From: a virus | Lineage: Duplodnaviria > Heunggongvirae > Uroviricota > Caudoviricetes | Strand: one strand, 5' to 3' | DNA length: 18,122 nucleotides | IMG/VR virus record: IMGVR_UViG_2778261416_000003 | Span: 1-18,122 of that record | Notes under the pieces: generated by a model | The model's input: the letters and a program-made list of their open reading frames with translations, nothing else | Told to the model about the DNA's origin: nothing | Database searches by the model: none | Part shown: positions 13,184 to 18,122 of the stretch, piece by piece | Layout: each line of letters begins with the position of its first letter | Numbering within the stretch: position 1 is the first letter of the stretch | Position numbers and translations under genes: made by a program

Positions 13184-13756
13184 ATGCTGATTGGGTATAT
13201 CAGGGTGTCAACAAATGACCAGAATACGGCGCTACAAAGAAATGCGCTGGAATGTGCAGGATGTGAGCTGTTTTTCGAAGACAGAATAAGCGGTAAGACA
13301 AGGGAGCGTCCCGGACTTAAACGCGCATTAAAGCGACTCCGGCCAGGGGATACCCTGCTGGTCTGGAAACTGGATCGCCTTGGACGCAGTATGCAGCACC
13401 TTGTCCTTTTAACAGAAGAACTCCGGCAACGCGGCGTTAACTTCCGCAGCATTACGGACAATATTGATACATCCACTCCCATGGGACGTTTCTTTTTCCA
13501 TATAATGGGCGCGCTGGCGGAAATGGAGCGGGAACTCATTATTGAACGTACACGCGCGGGTCTTGCTGCTGCCCGTGCTCAGGGGCGTCATGGCGGCAGA
13601 CCTCAGAAACTGACAGAGAAAGAGCGGGAGCAAATCGCCCGTTTGCTGGCTAATGGCGAGTCCCGTAAACAAATCGCACTGATATTTGATATTGGCCTTT
13701 CCACCCTTTATCGTTATTTTCCTGCCTCACCAGCTCCGTCACCAAAAGTACCGTGA
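13184..13756 (+). CDS. gin: serine DNA invertase (Gin/Pin/Hin family)
   Basis: 190 aa; MLIGYIRVSTNDQN catalytic-serine N-terminus, WKLDRLGRSM, GRFFFHIMGALAEMERELIIERT, C-terminal HTH; near-colinear with Pin/Gin; AAGGA RBS. Confidence 0.95.
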   Translation: MLIGYIRVSTNDQNTALQRNALECAGCELFFEDRISGKTRERPGLKRALKRLRPGDTLLVWKLDRLGRSMQHLVLLTEELRQRGVNFRSITDNIDTSTPMGRFFFHIMGALAEMERELIIERTRAGLAAARAQGRHGGRPQKLTEKEREQIARLLANGESRKQIALIFDIGLSTLYRYFPASPAPSPKVP

Positions 13757-13841: not shown

Positions 13842-15896
13842 ATGTCAGACTCCAAGTGGAAAATGCTCTCCGCCATGCCCGGAGAGTTTTCAGTCAAGGT
13901 TGCCGGTGGCACGGTGGCATTTATTGAAAGCCCTTTCCGCCCTTCGGGTAATAAAGGGGGGATCACCTTCGCAGACTGCGTGATCCGCTTCAGCACGAAA
14001 GAGCCATTATGGGTAATGCCGGTATCCGGTAATCCCAGTGCAGAAATCACCAGTTCAGGCGTGACTGGCATCATTCCAATCACATCTGACGTGGCCGGAA
14101 CGCTCACGCCCTCCGACTGGAATGCACCGGATAACGCCGGGCCTTCCGGTAGCACGAATGGCAGCAGTTCAAAGCCGGAATATTACTTTGTTGTCATTCT
14201 CGCGGGTCAGTCAAATGGCATGGCCTACGGCGAGGGGCTGCCGTTACCGGATTCGTTTGACCGCCCGGACCCACGCATTAAGCAACTGGCACGCCGCAGT
14301 ACGGTAACGCCCAACGGTACGTCGTGTACATACAACGACATCATTCCGGCAGACCACTGCCTGCATGATGTTCAGGATATGAGCGGGATAAACCACCCGA
14401 AAGCTGATCTGGCAAAAGGCCAGTACGGGACTGTCGGTCAGGGGTTGCATATTGCCAAAAAACTGCTTCCCTATATCCCACAGAATGCCGGGATACTTCT
14501 GGTGCCCTGTTGTCGTGGCGGGTCAGCATTCACCACTGGAGCCGACGGCTCATTCAGTGAGGCCAGCGGTGCTTCCGCTGATTCTTCACGCTGGGGGGCC
14601 GGTAAACCTCTGTATCAGGACCTGGTAAGCCGCACCAAAGTCGCGCTGGCGAAAAACCCGAAAAACAAACTTCTGGCTGTGGTCTGGATGCAGGGAGAGG
14701 CAGACCTTGCCTCAGGAAGCCAGCAGCATAATAGTTTATTCACGGCCATGGTTCAGCAGTTCAGAACTGACCTGGCTCCGCTTGCTGCGCAGTGCGTGAG
14801 TGGAAATGCCACCACGGTGCCGTGGATTTGCGGTGATACCACGTATTACTGGAAAAACGCTGGCACCGATAAATATGAGGCAGTATACGGTGGCTACAAA
14901 GGCAAGGAAGCACAGAAAATTTTCTTTGTACCGTTCCTGACGGATGAGAATGGACAGAGCACGCCAACGAATGCTCCGGCGGAAGACCCGGATATTGTGG
15001 CTGTCGGGTATTACGGTGCAGCATCCCGAACCCAGGGCAGTTTTGTTTCGACACAGCGTGACAGCCATTTCAGCTCATGGGCACGCAGGGGCGTCATTTC
15101 AGACCGTCTGGCCTCAGCTATTATGCTCCATGCAGGGCGCACGGCTGAACTGATGCGCGGGCAGACCGTGACACCACCGGATGAGAAGCCGTCACCTGAT
15201 ACACCATCAAAACCGTCCACGCCACCCGCAGACACCACGACGATGAGTACGCTATTTGCTTACCGGGCATCTGAGTCTGAAGGACGGTTGACACCACAGG
15301 GTTGGGCTGCCGGAGGTGGCAAGGCTCAAATCGTGGATGATGCCGGAGCCAGCGGGGGTAAGGCAATGAAACTGACCAAGGAAACAGGAAGAGCCCCCTG
15401 GTACCTTGAGCATGATGCTGGTAATGGTGCGGACCTGCTGGGTAAAGGTGGTCTTGTCAGTTGTCGTTTTAAACTCGATGGCGCGCTTACGGCTAATCAG
15501 TACGCACTGGCGCTGTACTGGCCGGTTTCTGCCCTGCCGCAAGGGGTTACTCTGGAAGGAAATGCCGGTCATAACCTGCTGGCATCGTTCTACGTACAGA
15601 GCGATGCCACAGACCTTAACGTGATGTATCACAAAGGAAACACGGCGCAGAACACGAAGCTGGGGTCATTCGGCGCATTTAATAACGAATGGCATACGCT
15701 GGGCTTCCGTTTTGCCGGTAACAACAGTATTGAGGTGACACCGGTCATTGATGGTAAGGACGGGACACCATTCATGCTGTCGCAGTCTCCGGTCGGCACG
15801 TTTACGGCAGACAAGTTGCGCGTGACCGATATCACTAAAAATGCGACTTACCCGGTACTGATTGACAGTATCGTGGTGGAAGTGAATAACGCGTAA
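13842..15896 (+). CDS. prophage-type sialate O-acetylesterase (NanS-p-like; SGNH/SASA esterase core, Pro/Ser/Thr linker, C-terminal lectin-like domain)
   Basis: 684 aa; esterase-core motif ILAGQSNGMAYGEGLPLPD, then VPCCRGGSAF and WMQGEADL; PPDEKPSPDTPSKPSTPPADTTT linker; location after tail-fibre genes as for NanS-p in Stx prophages; start codon uncertain. Confidence 0.75.
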   Translation: MSDSKWKMLSAMPGEFSVKVAGGTVAFIESPFRPSGNKGGITFADCVIRFSTKEPLWVMPVSGNPSAEITSSGVTGIIPITSDVAGTLTPSDWNAPDNAGPSGSTNGSSSKPEYYFVVILAGQSNGMAYGEGLPLPDSFDRPDPRIKQLARRSTVTPNGTSCTYNDIIPADHCLHDVQDMSGINHPKADLAKGQYGTVGQGLHIAKKLLPYIPQNAGILLVPCCRGGSAFTTGADGSFSEASGASADSSRWGAGKPLYQDLVSRTKVALAKNPKNKLLAVVWMQGEADLASGSQQHNSLFTAMVQQFRTDLAPLAAQCVSGNATTVPWICGDTTYYWKNAGTDKYEAVYGGYKGKEAQKIFFVPFLTDENGQSTPTNAPAEDPDIVAVGYYGAASRTQGSFVSTQRDSHFSSWARRGVISDRLASAIMLHAGRTAELMRGQTVTPPDEKPSPDTPSKPSTPPADTTTMSTLFAYRASESEGRLTPQGWAAGGGKAQIVDDAGASGGKAMKLTKETGRAPWYLEHDAGNGADLLGKGGLVSCRFKLDGALTANQYALALYWPVSALPQGVTLEGNAGHNLLASFYVQSDATDLNVMYHKGNTAQNTKLGSFGAFNNEWHTLGFRFAGNNSIEVTPVIDGKDGTPFMLSQSPVGTFTADKLRVTDITKNATYPVLIDSIVVEVNNA

Positions 15897-15901
15897 GCAG
15901 G

Positions 15902-15943
15902 ATAAAAAAATGCCGCCGGTAAGGGAAAACAAGAAACCGGCGG
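15902..15943 (-). terminator. minus-oriented intrinsic terminator
   Basis: GCCGCCGGT ... ACCGGCGGC (9-bp stem, 15-nt loop); on the minus strand the hairpin is followed by T7 (+ 15903..15909). Confidence 0.45.
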
Positions 15944-15992
15944 CAAAAAGATCGTTATATCCAAAGCAAAAAATGCAGTGCACCTTTTTACC
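15903..15992 (-). ncRNA. candidate small RNA (~90 nt) divergent from the small membrane-peptide gene
   Basis: Minus-strand TTGACA (+ 16025..16020), 15-nt spacer, TAATAT (+ 16004..15999), then the terminator above; no ORF. Confidence 0.25.
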
Positions 15993-16040
15993 TAACAGAT
16001 ATTACCGGTGTCAACACCATGTCAATAATTGGGAGGGATA

Positions 16041-16223
16041 ATGACATTTTTACAGCTTATTTTATTGTATTTCTGCACGGCAGTATGTGCGTTATATCTG
16101 GTGAGTGGTGGTTATAAGGCCATCAGAAATTATGTTCGCCGCAAAATTGAGGACGCAGCAGCTGAAAAACTCAGTAAAACAGCGCAGGTAACTCCGCTCC
16201 CAAAAGACCCGACCCAGCCCTGA
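16041..16223 (+). CDS. small membrane peptide (60 aa, one predicted TM helix, basic C-terminal tail)
   Basis: GGGAGGG RBS 4 nt upstream of ATG 16041; hydrophobic stretch FLQLILLYFCTAVCALYLVSGG; terminator immediately downstream. Confidence 0.45.
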   Translation: MTFLQLILLYFCTAVCALYLVSGGYKAIRNYVRRKIEDAAAEKLSKTAQVTPLPKDPTQP

Positions 16224-16238
16224 TTGCAGGGCTTTATT
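16216..16238 (+). terminator. intrinsic terminator overlapping the stop codon of the membrane-peptide gene
   Basis: AGCCCTG-ATTG-CAGGGCT (7-bp stem, 4-nt loop) followed by TTATT. Confidence 0.5.
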
Positions 16239-16258
16239 CCCGCATAAGGAGGATATAC

Positions 16259-16513
16259 ATGCCAGAAATTAAAGGCACCGTCACTGAAGACCTGGTAAAA
16301 CAGGCACTGTATTCCGGTGAAGTAAATAAGTTGCTGAAAGCGCAGGTCCGCAAGGATTTTGAGGCACAAATCGACACTTACGTTGATGAAGTGCTGGCAA
16401 AACTTATTGGGCCAGCAGTTGCGGCCAGTGATGCTGATAATGAGCCGAAAACCGACGCGCAGCCAGAGCAACCAGACCCGGCTCAGCCCGGAACTGACAG
16501 TACCATGATGTAA
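16259..16513 (+). CDS. hypothetical acidic protein (84 aa)
   Basis: AGGAGG RBS 6 nt upstream of ATG 16259; hairpin CAAACCGG ... CCGGTTTG (16519..16546) downstream. Confidence 0.5.
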   Translation: MPEIKGTVTEDLVKQALYSGEVNKLLKAQVRKDFEAQIDTYVDEVLAKLIGPAVAASDADNEPKTDAQPEQPDPAQPGTDSTMM

Positions 16514-16680: not shown

Positions 16681-16974
16681 TTAGTCCGATTCACGCTTTT
16701 GTAGAATCGTTCCCAGAATGCTATACAGCTCATTAGCCTGTTGCTCCATCATTGAGACGGAGGCTATACGGTGCAAAGTGATTTCAGGAGGTGGCACACC
16801 TCCATCTTCTTGCTGTGGAGGAAAAACATAAGATTTAATAAAAAAGTTGAAGCATATGAACTCTCCCGCACTCGAACTGTATTTGCAGGCATCTGAATAA
16901 TCGGAAAAATAATCATTATAGATTTCCGCATTTTCAATCATTTTTCGATTTCTCGTCGTTACATGATTGTCCAT
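16681..16974 (-). CDS. hypothetical protein (97 aa), divergent from com-mom
   Basis: AAGAGG RBS 5 nt upstream of ATG 16974 on the minus strand; AT-rich; downstream hairpin CTATCCAGC ... GCTGGATAG at 16567..16598. Confidence 0.45.
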   Translation of the reverse strand: MDNHVTTRNRKMIENAEIYNDYFSDYSDACKYSSSAGEFICFNFFIKSYVFPPQQEDGGVPPPEITLHRIASVSMMEQQANELYSILGTILQKRESD

Positions 16975-17097
16975 AGCAGCCTCTTACGCTGGCAATTAAC
17001 CAATTGACTTCTATAAATTAGTTGATTTGTTTGCTTTGCGGTATTCAAATGTACAATCATTCAGCACTTATGCGTTACAGCACCGTTTAAAATTAGT

Positions 17098-17190
17098 GAT
17101 CAAACTCATAAATTTTCGCTAATGACATTTCGTGTTATTTGTTGTATCAATTAAATAAATCAAATCGATCGTTTTTGTCGATCGATTGAG
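17098..17190 (+). promoter_or_regulatory. com-mom upstream regulatory region with three GATC (Dam) sites and a palindrome
   Basis: GATC at 17098..17101, 17167..17170 and 17180..17183; palindrome AATCGATCG-N7-CGATCGATT (17163..17187); Mu mom is known to be controlled by Dam methylation of three upstream GATC sites. Confidence 0.4.
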
Positions 17191-17230
17191 TGATAAAGAT
17201 ATCAACAACAAAGCAGGAGGTTATGCGGCC

Positions 17231-17431
17231 ATGTATCGAAACATACGGTGCCGACATTGTAACAAGCTACTGGCACGAGCCAGCTTCAGTTATCTGGAAG
17301 TTAAATGTCCGCGCTGTAAAACCCTCAATCAAATCACATCTCAGAGCGCCACAGAGCACCCCACATACACAAGGAAATCCTGTCGTGGGGAACAGAAAGC
17401 AAGTTACATCCCGTATCATCAGCACGCCTGA
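17231..17431 (+). CDS. com: Com-like zinc-finger translational activator of mom
   Basis: 66 aa; CxxC...CxxC (CRHC ... CPRC); AGGAGG 10 nt upstream of ATG 17231; overlaps the mom reading frame as in Mu. Confidence 0.75.
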
Positions 17432-18122
17432 ACTTATTCACTATAACGACAATATCGTCGGTTATGGCTCCCGTGAGTTACGGGTTGAGACAATAAGTTG
17501 CTGGCTGGCCCGGCTGGTCGTCGTCAATAAACATTACAGCCATCGTTTCGTAAATAATTCCTACCTTCATCTGGGCATATTTTCAGAACGGGAGCTGGTT
17601 GGCGTAATGCAATGGGGTTATGCCCTTAATCCAAACAATGGTGCACGCGTCGTAACTGGCACGCAGAACCGCGAATATATGGAGCTTAACCGGTTATGGC
17701 TGCATGACTGTATGCCGAGAAACTCCGAATCAAGGGCAATCAGTTACGCGCTCAAACTAATCAGACAACTTTATCCGCAGGTGCAGTGGGTTCAGTCGTT
17801 TGCAGATGAGCGTTGTGGCTGTCTTGGTGTCGTGTACCAGGCAAGCAATTTTGATTATGTAGGCAGTCATGAAACAACATTCTATGAACTTGATGGCGAG
17901 TGGTATCACGAGATTTGCAAGAATGCAATCAAACGAGGAGGACAGCGAGGTGAACATCTGCGGGCTAATATCGACAGAGCCAGTGTTCATAAATTCCGTC
18001 AGTTTCGTTACATCCGGTTTCTGGACAAGAGAGCCAGAAAACGCCTTAACACAAAGCTATTCAAAGTCCAGCCTTACCCAAAACCACAAACAGTTAAAAC
18101 TGGTTTGAAAGAGAGTGAATGA
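17385..18122 (+). CDS. mom: Mom-like DNA modification protein; start uncertain (ORF open from 17190)
   Basis: Long ORF in a different frame overlapping the 3' half of com; GTG 17385 has AGGA 9 nt upstream; rightmost-gene position after gin and com as in Mu. Confidence 0.7.

What the first reader, a model, noticed from the sequence alone, without database searches (positions are those of the whole stretch)
15903..16040. Candidate divergent small RNA next to the small membrane-peptide gene (type I toxin-antitoxin-like layout)
On the minus strand a TTGACA -35 and TAATAT -10 (15-nt spacer) lie ~75 nt upstream of a GC-rich 9-bp hairpin with a T7 tract, defining a possible ~90-nt non-coding transcript that ends just past the esterase stop. 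It starts about 50 bp upstream of, and divergent from, the TM-peptide gene. Divergent sRNA plus small hydrophobic peptide resembles tisB/istR-type loci, but I found no convincing complementarity by eye.
Basis: inference. Interest (0 to 1): 0.4.

Follow-up and report, generated by a model that had tools for sequence, protein, structure and literature searches.

The report
Prophage small RNA gene, EcOnc33 family
The spot holds a real, self-contained gene for a ~75-base regulatory RNA carried by E. coli prophages; close relatives have already been detected in O157:H7 bound to Hfq, and it is not the antidote half of a toxin-antitoxin pair.

Summary
The minus-strand terminator (10-bp GC stem, 15-nt loop, U7; 15945-15904) is real and conserved. 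The conserved pair is TTGACA (16014-16009), 18 nt, TAAAAA (15990-15985). That gives a ~75-nt RNA (about 15978-15904), not ~90 nt.

All 37 distinct esterase|DUF1378 spacers examined (at least 8 unrelated sequence types) carry a promoter of this form (exact in 34), 64-103 nt of variable body, then a hairpin and T-run next to the esterase stop. The stem covaries.

The window RNA matches EcOnc33 of O157:H7 Sakai prophage Sp6 at 68 of 82 aligned positions. EcOnc33 gave an Hfq crosslinking peak in 5 of 5 datasets and a ~71-nt Northern band. Its best RNase E-CLASH partner is the arcA start-codon region. EcOnc52 and EcOnc51 occupy the same slot. Esr41 is a clear homologue of the Sp5 variant.

The toxin-antitoxin reading fails. 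Complementarity to the DUF1378 mRNA is at most 9 nt and not conserved. No promoter for DUF1378 lies between the two. The RNA cassette also occurs without DUF1378.

Verdict: a new member of a known kind, a prophage Hfq-type small RNA that is unannotated in 355 complete E. coli genomes. Interest is modest.

The parts
16009..16014 (-). -35 hexamer TTGACA of the sRNA promoter (the distal of two TTGACA copies)
   Evidence: Read on the minus strand. It is invariant in all 12 type-A spacers that have it. A -35 of the form TTGACN (TTTACT in one spacer, L070) sits 17/18 nt from the -10 in all 37 distinct spacers. The pattern is unique in the window against 0.02 expected.
15985..15990 (-). -10 hexamer TAAAAA, 18 nt after the -35; it lacks the usual T at position 6
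   Evidence: columns A30-A33 invariant. That it acts as the -10 is inferred from spacing, conservation and the 5' end of EcOnc33 hybrid reads.
15904..15978 (-). Predicted ~75-nt sRNA: CUGCAUUUUUUGCUUUGGAUAUAACGAUCUUUUUGCCGCCGGUUUCUUGUUUUCCCUUACCGGCGGCAUUUUUUU. The 5' end is uncertain by about 8 nt.
   Evidence: Fold -23.0 kcal/mol, z -4.6. 68 of 82 aligned positions match the EcOnc33 model. Family model R1 scores 97.5 bits, E 8e-20, although the window is in the model's seed. There is a sub-threshold full-length Esr41 hit at 15902-15984, minus strand.
15966..15978 (-). 5' single-stranded segment CUGCAUUUUUUGC, the candidate seed. The EcOnc33 allele has G at position 7 and pairs with the arcA start-codon region.
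   Evidence: CLASH hybrid AUUUAGGUAGCAAACAUGCAGACCC|CUGCAUGUUUUGCUUUGGAU: 5 reads, both replicates, FDR 2.7e-4. ECs_5359 is arcA. Duplex energy is -22.4 (p 0.004) for EcOnc33 and -17.5 (p 0.024) for the window allele. The segment is conserved within type A/A'.
15946..15949 (-). U-rich stretch just 5' of the terminator stem. Together with the U7 tail it forms the canonical Hfq-binding module.
   Evidence: Sequence. Its role is inferred from established knowledge of Hfq-binding modules and from Hfq-CRAC peaks on the homologues.
15911..15945 (-). Rho-independent terminator hairpin: arms 15945-15936 and 15920-15911, 15-nt loop UUCUUGUUUUCCCUU (15935-15921)
   Evidence: I1, 10 nt, 100% complementary. 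Covariation. The loop core CUUGUUUUCCC is invariant in 18 type A/A' spacers.
15904..15910 (-). U7 tract, the 3' end of the sRNA; it lies 8 nt from the esterase stop codon
   Evidence: The A-run is invariant on the + strand in A1. CLASH reads of EcOnc33 and EcOnc52 end in this U tract.
16020..16025 (-). It is the second copy produced by an 11-bp duplication and is not under selection in type A.
   Evidence: TTGATA, TTGGCA, TTAATA or TCGACA in relatives. It is invariant only in type A', where it is the sole -35 at 17 nt from TAAAAA.
15999..16004 (-). It lies inside the spacer of the conserved promoter and is not conserved.
   Evidence: TAATAC, TAATGC or CAATGC elsewhere. A weak second promoter cannot be excluded.
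13842..15896 (+). NanS-p-type SASA/DUF6645 carbohydrate esterase gene; the sRNA terminator abuts its stop codon
   Evidence: Pfam PF03629 and PF20350. The Sakai homologue ECs_1527 is annotated as 9-O-acetyl-N-acetylneuraminic acid deacetylase.
16041..16223 (+). It is a neighbour, not a partner.
   Evidence: Pfam PF07125. phrog_494, unknown function. No conserved pairing with the sRNA.

Best explanation
This is an autonomous small-RNA gene of the EcOnc33 family. It sits antisense in the spacer between a NanS-p-type esterase gene and the DUF1378 gene of a moron module. Here the module lies in a Mu-like prophage between gin and com/mom.

A sigma-70-type promoter (TTGACA, 18 nt, TAAAAA) starts transcription near 15978. 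A Rho-independent terminator stops it at the U7 tract (15910-15904), giving a ~75-nt RNA. The RNA has an unstructured U-rich 5' part, a U-rich stretch before the terminator stem and a poly-U tail, which is the standard Hfq-binding layout.

By inference from its homologues, it is made in the lysogen, bound by Hfq, and acts in trans by base-pairing with host mRNAs. For the EcOnc33 allele the best-supported partner is the arcA translation-initiation region, contacted by the 5' end of the RNA. The window allele has a G-to-U change in that seed, so its target set may differ.

Shown here: the sequence elements, their conservation and covariation, homology to EcOnc33, and the published Hfq and RNase E crosslinks and Northern band on the homologues. 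Inferred: expression of this particular allele, the exact 5' end, trans action and the target.
For: 1. Architecture. A promoter of the form TTGACN-17/18-TA(A/G)AAA, then 64-103 nt, then a GC hairpin with T5-8 next to the esterase stop, is found in all 37 distinct spacers; 34 match exactly and three differ at one position. The bodies fall into at least 8 unrelated types.

2. The terminator stem covaries.

3. Selection tracks the -35 that has the right spacing.

4. EcOnc33 in Tree et al. 2014 Table S2: Sp6, minus strand, terminator predicted, 5 of 5 Hfq-CRAC datasets, Northern ~71 nt. CLASH read fragments of EcOnc33 are identical to the RNA predicted for the Sp6-type spacer. The Sp6 locus lies between esterase ECs_1527 and DUF1378 ECs_1528. 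The window matches EcOnc33 at 68 of 82 aligned positions.

5. The EcOnc52 peak (1181998-1182075, minus strand) spans the predicted start to the terminator of the Sp4 variant. An EcOnc52 hybrid read ends in the U tract.

6. The arcA hybrid is the top EcOnc33 interaction.

7. Esr41, a characterised Hfq sRNA, is homologous to the Sp5 variant (z = 13). It is also found by the family model built without it (31.5 bits, E 3e-5).

8. There is no conserved ORF. The 43-aa + strand ORF 15910-16041 loses its ATG or gains a stop in relatives. The RNA itself has no AUG.
Against: There is no expression data for this window or this allele. The -10 TAAAAA lacks the highly conserved T at position 6, so promoter strength is uncertain.

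The 5' end is not mapped. EcOnc33 cluster coordinates reach about 8 nt upstream of the predicted start. One EcOnc51 hybrid (2 reads) covers the -10 region of the Sp12 variant, which points to read-through from an upstream cassette or to another start.

The predicted EcOnc33 length is 80 nt against ~71 nt on the Northern. The arcA link rests on 5 hybrid reads with no reporter validation, and the window allele carries a mismatch in that duplex.

No paper text discusses EcOnc33 or EcOnc52.
Confidence: 0.72

Rival explanations
1. The RNA acts in cis as an antisense RNA, like lambda OOP. The esterase, DUF1378 and DUF826 genes (and, in lambdoid phages, the holin and lysis genes) are read as one + strand transcript. 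The 75-nt RNA is perfectly complementary to the esterase|DUF1378 intercistronic segment. Duplex formation would trigger RNase III cleavage or transcriptional interference and so uncouple or damp the downstream genes. This is compatible with the trans model and could be a second function.
For: In lambdoid prophages the module lies between Q/PR' and holin S on one strand. No + strand promoter was found between the sRNA start and the DUF1378 ATG. On the + strand the hairpin has no T-run after it, so + strand transcripts should read through. The position next to the esterase stop is fixed while the body varies. That pattern is what a purely cis element would tolerate.
Against: The homologues are abundant Hfq ligands in uninduced lysogens, where the late operon is off. 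EcOnc33 forms hybrids with core-genome mRNAs. Esr41 keeps working as a trans regulator in an island that lacks the esterase and DUF1378. The 5' segment and the loop are conserved within types, which a pure antisense role does not require.
Confidence: 0.18
2. The RNA is the antitoxin of a type I toxin-antitoxin pair and represses the small membrane protein DUF1378 by pairing with its mRNA, as in tisB/istR-1, shoB/ohsC or zor/orz.
For: DUF1378 is 60 aa with an N-terminal hydrophobic helix. The RNA gene is adjacent and opposite in orientation. The CU-rich loop UCCCUU could pair with the DUF1378 Shine-Dalgarno GAGGGA; this was checked by hand and is a generic anti-SD match. Duplex energy against the 5'UTR plus 60 nt is marginally better than shuffles (z = -2.3, p 0.02).
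Against: The longest complementarity is 9 nt (CGUUAUAUC at codons 17-19). It is seen only in two alleles and is lost in close relatives. Known divergent type I pairs have about 18-30 nt. Against the whole mRNA, z = -0.66. There is no separate DUF1378 promoter. The cassette persists without DUF1378 in Sp4, Sp12 and SpLE1. DUF1378 always travels with DUF826 ahead of the holin, as an ordinary late-operon gene. DUF1378 has no known function in Pfam or PHROGs.
Confidence: 0.04
3. Only the terminator matters. It would shield the esterase gene from antisense transcription coming from the right, for example from the minus-strand ORF at 16681-16974. On this view the promoter-like hexamers are incidental and no discrete functional RNA is made.
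For: The terminator is the best-conserved element. The -10 is non-canonical. One CLASH read in Sp12 covers the promoter region, which shows that some antisense read-through exists.
Against: A perfect or near-perfect -35 at fixed 17/18-nt spacing is kept in all 37 spacers across unrelated sequence types, and selection follows the correctly spaced copy. Discrete Hfq peaks and a ~71-nt Northern band exist for the homologue. The right-hand context differs completely between Mu-like and lambdoid hosts.
Confidence: 0.06

Closest known systems
EcOnc33 (Hfq-binding sRNA of prophage Sp6, E. coli O157:H7 Sakai; Tree et al. 2014, Mol Cell, Table S2; Waters et al. 2017, EMBO J, Table EV7)
   Same: Same position and strand, in the spacer between the NanS-p-type esterase and DUF1378. 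Same promoter form, same terminator stem GCCGCCGG/CCGGCGGC and same loop core CUUGUUUUCCC. 68 of 82 aligned positions are identical.
   Different: The window allele has U instead of G at position 7 of the 5' seed. It has a shorter loop (no CUGGCUC insert) and a longer U-run before the stem. It sits in a Mu-like prophage rather than a lambdoid one. EcOnc33 itself has no published function beyond the supplementary tables.
Esr41 / EcOnc14 (Rfam RF02676), the EHEC SpLE1 sRNA that represses cirA, chuA and bfr and affects ler and fliC
   Same: Same build: a TTGACA promoter, a ~74-nt RNA, a single-stranded seed, a GC terminator and a U7 tail followed by ATCA. Esr41 is clearly homologous to the Sp5 variant of this cassette (z = 13). 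The family model built without it detects it (31.5 bits). It is Hfq-dependent and trans-acting.
   Different: The window RNA scores only 22.2 bits against a gathering score of 102. It lacks the Esr41 seed UUUUCUCCAUGGGG. Esr41 has a better -10 (TATATA) and a 5' hairpin, and it lies next to iha with no esterase or DUF1378 nearby.
EcOnc52 (Sp4) and EcOnc51 (Sp12), Hfq-CRAC peaks in Sakai
   Same: Same slot next to the esterase stop, same promoter-to-terminator plan, and crosslinked to Hfq and RNase E.
   Different: The body and stem sequence are unrelated (GCCAGCG/CGCUGGC). DUF1378 is absent from both loci.
Lambda OOP RNA (77-nt antisense RNA with its own promoter and intrinsic terminator, convergent with the PR transcript)
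   Same: A short, self-contained antisense transcription unit embedded in a phage operon. Similar size.
   Different: OOP overlaps the 3' end of a coding region (cII) and acts through RNase III. Here the overlap is purely intercistronic, and cis action is untested. This comparison rests on general knowledge and was not tested here.
Type I toxin-antitoxin loci with divergent antitoxin RNAs (tisB/istR-1, shoB/ohsC, zor/orz, dinQ/agrB)
   Same: A small RNA gene lies next to, and opposite in orientation to, a small hydrophobic protein gene.
   Different: There is no extended complementarity and no separate toxin promoter. The RNA occurs without the peptide gene, and the peptide is a conserved phage late-operon protein.
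AsxR/AgvB anti-sRNA dyads of lambdoid prophages (RF02703, RF02702)
   Same: Prophage moron-region Hfq sRNAs antisense to the late operon, with conserved scaffolds and variable target-recognition parts.
   Different: They lie upstream of the esterase, between the moron and the esterase. They are 51-60 nt and have a different sequence family. There is no Rfam hit in the window.

Membership tests
EcOnc33 sRNA (Tree et al. 2014) | Sequence homology to the Sakai Sp6 RNA | tested here: met
   68 of 82 aligned positions are identical. The Sp6 locus and the window are the two top hits of family model R1, at 108.9 and 97.5 bits; both are in the model's seed. The 119-nt unit aligns at 80-90% identity to 327 genomes carrying the O157-type allele.
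EcOnc33 sRNA (Tree et al. 2014) | Encoded on the strand opposite the late genes, in the spacer between the NanS-p-type esterase stop and DUF1378 | tested here: met
   Window: esterase stop at 15896, RNA at 15978-15904 on the minus strand, DUF1378 ATG at 16041. Sp6: ECs_1527 | EcOnc33 | ECs_1528.
EcOnc33 sRNA (Tree et al. 2014) | Rho-independent terminator | tested here: met
EcOnc33 sRNA (Tree et al. 2014) | Discrete ~71-nt transcript bound by Hfq in vivo | not testable with these tools
   Shown only for the Sakai homologue. There is no expression data for the window's strain.
Esr41 (Rfam RF02676) | Score at or above the Rfam gathering threshold (102 bits) | tested here: not met
   22.2 bits, E 0.076, full-length alignment 1-74.
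Esr41 (Rfam RF02676) | Seed UUUUCUCCAUGGGG, used against cirA, chuA and bfr | tested here: not met
   Absent from the window RNA. Present in the Sp5 variant.
Esr41 (Rfam RF02676) | Common descent with the cassette family (superfamily level) | tested here: inconclusive
   Esr41 against the Sp5 unit gives z = 13, and model R1 finds Esr41 at 31.5 bits, E 3e-5. Esr41 against the window unit directly gives only z = 3.2. The link to the window runs through shared position and scaffold.
Type I toxin-antitoxin, divergent-antitoxin class (tisB/istR-1 type) | Extended (about 18 nt or more) complementarity between the sRNA and the toxin mRNA | tested here: not met
   The longest shared word is 9 nt and is not conserved. 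Duplex z = -0.66 for the whole mRNA.
Type I toxin-antitoxin, divergent-antitoxin class (tisB/istR-1 type) | The toxin gene has its own promoter, divergent from the sRNA promoter | tested here: not met
   No sigma-70-like + strand site lies between 15979 and 16040. The only + strand hit starts at the ATG itself. This is a consensus scan only.
Type I toxin-antitoxin, divergent-antitoxin class (tisB/istR-1 type) | The sRNA and the peptide gene are inherited together | tested here: not met
   The cassette occurs without DUF1378 in Sp4, Sp12 and SpLE1.
Type I toxin-antitoxin, divergent-antitoxin class (tisB/istR-1 type) | The small hydrophobic peptide is toxic when over-produced | not testable with these tools
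   DUF1378 has one N-terminal hydrophobic helix. Function is unknown in Pfam and PHROGs.
OOP-like cis-antisense phage RNA | Self-contained short transcription unit convergent with, and overlapping, a phage polycistronic transcript | tested here: inconclusive
   The geometry is met if the esterase and DUF1378 are co-transcribed. That is inferred from the lack of a + strand promoter or terminator in the spacer and from the late-operon context.
OOP-like cis-antisense phage RNA | RNase III-dependent cleavage of the sense mRNA | not testable with these tools
   No data.
AsxR/AgvB anti-sRNAs (RF02703, RF02702) | Match to the Rfam models, and position between the moron and the esterase | tested here: not met
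   There is no hit in the window. In Sakai they map upstream of the esterase.

The most novel reading that the evidence does not exclude
The spacer after NanS-p-type esterase genes may be a fixed 'sRNA slot'. A conserved promoter and terminator scaffold would carry interchangeable bodies, with at least 8 types including EcOnc33, EcOnc52/51 and the Esr41 lineage. Prophages, both lambdoid and Mu-like, could then shuffle host-directed regulators with different seeds. On this reading the EcOnc33 lineage, including this allele, tunes translation of the global redox regulator ArcA. This unification, and the arcA link, do not appear in the text of any paper found here.
Probability: 0.3. Interest if true: 0.55.

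Novelty: new member of a known kind. Interest (0 to 1): 0.33.

Why it matters
The window adds an unannotated allele of an experimentally detected but uncharacterised prophage sRNA. The 119-nt gene unit is present in 355 of 5,426 complete E. coli genomes, and no feature is annotated under it in the 12 records listed from across the ranking.

Three results go beyond the published tables.

1. EcOnc33, EcOnc52, EcOnc51 and the Esr41 lineage share one genomic slot and one promoter and terminator scaffold.

2. The cassette travels with the esterase/DUF1378/DUF826 moron into Mu-like prophages.

3. The strongest in vivo partner of the EcOnc33 lineage is the arcA start codon region. If confirmed, this would be a prophage lever on the host's aerobic/anaerobic switch.

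None of this is a new kind of system. Prophage Hfq sRNAs in moron regions are well established.

Tried and rejected
- Rfam at gathering thresholds found nothing in the window.
- Megablast and blastn of the region or of the 119-nt unit against INPHARED phages found no match for the RNA unit. Only the esterase 3' end matched Stx phages.
- A genome-contig scan with the DUF1378 alignment returned no confirmed locus. The viral-contig scan supplied the 80 loci instead.
- I searched for tisB/istR-like complementarity using exact shared words, the repeat finder and duplexfold against shuffles, across all spacer types. Nothing conserved turned up.
- The 43-aa + strand ORF 15910-16041, whose stop overlaps the DUF1378 ATG as TAATG, was considered as a coupled leader peptide. 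I rejected it: there is no ATG in the Sp6 type and a premature stop in L004.
- A + strand promoter reading of GTCAATAAT was rejected. The start would fall inside the ribosome-binding site, and the motif is not conserved as AATAAT.
- A + strand terminator reading of the TTTTTA run was rejected. No hairpin precedes it in any type.
- HnrS (EcOnc10/11/12) was considered as the identity. I rejected this because it lies after Rz, not here.
- AsxR/AgvB was rejected on position and sequence.
- Full-text searches for EcOnc33 and EcOnc52 found no paper.
- The supplements of Sy et al. 2020 (dRNA-seq and Term-seq) are not held, so 5' and 3' ends could not be read directly.
Full report
**Context.** The window is the right end of a Mu-like prophage of E. 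coli. It holds a tail-fibre assembly gene, the gin invertase (13184-13756), and then a three-gene insert:
- a SASA/DUF6645 carbohydrate esterase of the NanS-p type (13842-15896)
- DUF1378 (16041-16223)
- DUF826 (16259-16513)

After the insert come a minus-strand orphan ORF and com/mom. An almost identical locus (99.9%) in strain JE86-ST05 lies next to ybfB/rhsC. The same esterase-DUF1378-DUF826 module sits between the Q antiterminator and the holin in lambdoid prophages, including those of O157:H7. The finding concerns the 144-bp spacer between the esterase and DUF1378.

**The observation.** All the named motifs are present. The hairpin is a perfect 10-bp inverted repeat with a 15-nt loop. On the minus strand it is followed by U7. 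On the + strand it is followed by A-rich sequence, so it can terminate only minus-strand transcription. The consensus scanner missed it because its loop limit is 8 nt. The predicted 75-nt RNA folds at -23.0 kcal/mol (z = -4.6).

**Comparative evidence.** I collected the spacer from 8 E. coli loci and 80 IMG/VR loci found with a DUF1378 alignment. With the Sakai Sp4 locus this gave 37 distinct spacers. They fall into at least eight sequence types that cannot be aligned with each other outside a few islands.

All 37 carry, on the minus strand, a promoter of the form TTGACN-17/18-TA(A/G)AAA. Thirty-four match exactly, and three differ at one position: TTTACT in L070, TGAAAA in Sp4 and TAAAAC in L039. 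A GC-rich hairpin (-14 to -23 kcal/mol) with T5-8 follows 64-103 nt later and abuts the esterase stop. On an 18-sequence alignment the 8-bp core of the stem is paired in 91.7% of cells. Four pairs show compensatory changes. The covariation score is 0.269 against 0.135 in shuffles (0 of 500 reach it), and sliding the register destroys it.

**Which promoter.** In the window there are two TTGACA copies 11 bp apart, produced by a duplication. Among 18 distinct type A/A' spacers, the copy 17/18 nt from TAAAAA is invariant. This is the distal copy in type A and the only copy in type A'. The other copy decays to TTGATA, TTGGCA, TTAATA or TCGACA. The pattern TTGAC-N18/19-TAAAAA occurs once in the 18-kb window against 0.02 expected.

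The gene model is therefore:
- -35 at 16014-16009
- -10 at 15990-15985
- start near 15978
- end at 15910-15904

This gives about 75 nt rather than about 90 nt. The -10 lacks the usual T at position 6, which is a weakness of the model.

**Published experimental evidence on homologues.** Table S2 of Tree et al. 2014 (PMC4104026) lists EcOnc33 as follows: Sakai chromosome 1557089-1557136, minus strand, prophage Sp6, terminator predicted, peak in 5 of 5 Hfq-CRAC datasets, Northern ~71 nt. Table EV7 of Waters et al. 2017 (PMC5286369) gives RNase E-CLASH reads for EcOnc33, including CGACATTTGCCGCCGGTT, ATTTGCCGCCGGTTCTGGCTCCTTG, CCCTGCCCCGGCGGCCTTTTTT and CTGCATGTTTTGCTTTGGAT. These are exactly the RNA I had predicted for the O157 Sp6-type spacer.

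In NC_002695.2 that spacer lies between esterase ECs_1527 and DUF1378 ECs_1528. The old and new Sakai coordinates differ by about 141-142 bp there. They differ by 0 at Sp4, which I checked against convergent terminators. The window RNA matches the EcOnc33 model at 68 of 82 aligned positions.

A second peak, EcOnc52 (1181998-1182075, minus strand, Sp4), spans the interval from the predicted start to the U tract of the Sp4 variant. One of its hybrid reads ends ...GTCGCTGGCTCTTTTT. EcOnc51 in Sp12 is the same variant. These RNAs therefore exist in vivo and bind Hfq and RNase E.

**Relation to Esr41.** A relaxed Rfam scan aligned window 15902-15984 (minus strand) end to end with Esr41 (RF02676). 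The score was only 22.2 bits against a gathering score of 102. The Sp5 (Stx2 phage) variant scored 28.1 bits.

A covariance model built from 18 cassette representatives without Esr41 found the Esr41 gene in SpLE1 at 31.5 bits (E about 3e-5). The best unrelated hit scored 16.2 bits. The Esr41 gene and the Sp5 unit align locally with z = 13, sharing UUUUCUCCAU, GGUAU, CCGCC and the trailing UUUUUUUAUCA.

Esr41 is therefore a relative of one type of this cassette. The window RNA is not a member of the Rfam family and lacks its seed.

**What it does.** The layout is that of a class I Hfq sRNA: an unstructured U-rich 5' part, a U-run before the terminator stem and a U7 tail. This matches the crosslinking data.

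The top EcOnc33 interaction in the CLASH table is with ECs5359. It has 5 unique hybrids, appears in both replicates and both orientations, overlaps an Hfq site and has FDR 2.7e-4. ECs_5359 is arcA, and the hybrid covers positions -26 to +11 around its start codon. The 5' end of the RNA (CUGCAUGUUU) pairs with AAACAUGCAG. Predicted duplex energy is -22.4 kcal/mol (p = 0.004 against shuffles) for EcOnc33. For the window allele, which has U for G at position 7, it is -17.5 kcal/mol (p = 0.024).

I therefore favour a trans-acting, Hfq-dependent repressor-type sRNA expressed from the prophage, with arcA as a candidate target of the lineage. This is inference, and nothing here was tested for this allele. 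The loop core CUUGUUUUCCC is invariant in type A/A'. CU-rich, anti-Shine-Dalgarno-like runs recur in or next to the terminator loop of the other types. That is suggestive but unquantified.

**Cis action.** No + strand promoter lies between the RNA start and the DUF1378 ATG, and the hairpin cannot terminate + strand transcripts. The esterase and DUF1378 are therefore probably co-transcribed, and the RNA is fully antisense to their intercistronic segment. An OOP-like cis effect is possible and not exclusive. However, the homologues are abundant in uninduced lysogens, pair with core mRNAs, and in the case of Esr41 work away from the module.

**The toxin-antitoxin reading.** The best complementarity to the DUF1378 mRNA is a 9-nt word inside the coding region. 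It is present in the window and Sp6 alleles and lost in their close relatives. The cassette occurs without DUF1378 in Sp4, Sp12 and SpLE1. Conversely, Sp10 has an esterase followed directly by the holin, with neither DUF1378 nor the cassette. DUF1378 is of unknown function in Pfam and PHROGs. I rate this model at about 4%.

**Status.** The 119-nt unit is found in 355 of 5,426 complete E. coli genomes. Twenty-one have at least 99% identity and 327 have the 80-90% identical O157-type allele. No feature is annotated under the match in the 12 records listed from across the ranking. The unit is absent from the INPHARED phage set. No paper text mentions EcOnc33 or EcOnc52.

The element is thus a new allele of a known but uncharacterised prophage sRNA.

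Noticed in passing
L008 7082-7206 (Sakai Sp5, Stx2 phage; NC_002695.2 about 1272081-1272205), minus strand: The esterase|DUF1378 spacer of the Stx2 phage carries a clear paralogue of Esr41 with the same seed UUUUCUCCAU (local alignment z = 13; Rfam Esr41 28.1 bits). It is not in Tree et al. Table S2 and not in the review's table of Stx-phage sRNAs.
   Followed up: partly
L094 2400-2690 (Sakai Sp12), + strand of the locus: Two sRNA cassettes with similar promoters lie in tandem between the holin and the esterase. The first is an EcOnc35-like unit (TTGACA...GCCAGCAC/GTGCTGGC + T7). The second is the EcOnc51 unit, of the Sp4/EcOnc52 type. One CLASH read spans the second unit's -10 region, which suggests read-through.
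   Followed up: partly
window 16015-16025: An 11-bp duplication creates a second TTGACA next to the functional -35. Type A' spacers lack it, and in type A relatives the extra copy is decaying.
   Followed up: yes
window 15910-16041, + strand: A 43-aa ORF starts in the A7/ATG at the foot of the hairpin, and its TAA overlaps the DUF1378 ATG (TAATG). It looks like translational coupling but is not conserved: there is no ATG in the Sp6 type and an early stop in L004.
   Followed up: yes
window 16214-16240, + strand: A hairpin AGCCCTG/CAGGGCT followed by TTTATT lies right after the DUF1378 stop and before DUF826. It may be a weak + strand terminator, attenuator or mRNA-stabilising element.
   Followed up: no
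window 16205-16223 and 16474-16492: A 19-nt direct repeat (84% identical) lies at the 3' ends of DUF1378 and DUF826. Both proteins end in similar proline-rich tails (KDPTQP / PDPAQP).
   Followed up: no
window 16681-16974 (minus strand) and the AT-rich stretch 16850-17300: A 97-aa minus-strand ORF with no Pfam or PHROG match lies in a low-GC (0.35-0.40) segment between DUF826 and com. Two promoter-like sites lie just upstream of it. It is annotated 'hypothetical protein' in RefSeq and is replaced by a different 154-aa ORF in another Mu-like prophage (L005).
   Followed up: no
window 17186-17431 and 17190-18122; L001 4532-4731: The com gene reads as an intact 81-aa ORF from a TTG start in the window, with a Pfam Zn_ribbon_Com match. 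RefSeq marks com as frameshifted in the near-identical locus. The longest mom ORF overlaps it almost entirely in another frame.
   Followed up: no
L090 5441-5551 (Sakai Sp10), minus strand: The gene for HnrS (EcOnc11), a different prophage sRNA located after Rz, gives a weak hit (16.2 bits, E 0.06) to the cassette model. This probably reflects only the shared TTGACA-promoter, short-RNA and terminator plan.
   Followed up: no
L090 2488-2636 (Sakai Sp10): Here an esterase gene is followed directly by the holin, with no DUF1378/DUF826 and no antisense cassette. The spacer instead ends in a + strand terminator-like hairpin (GCCATCAG...CTGGTGGC + T6).
   Followed up: no
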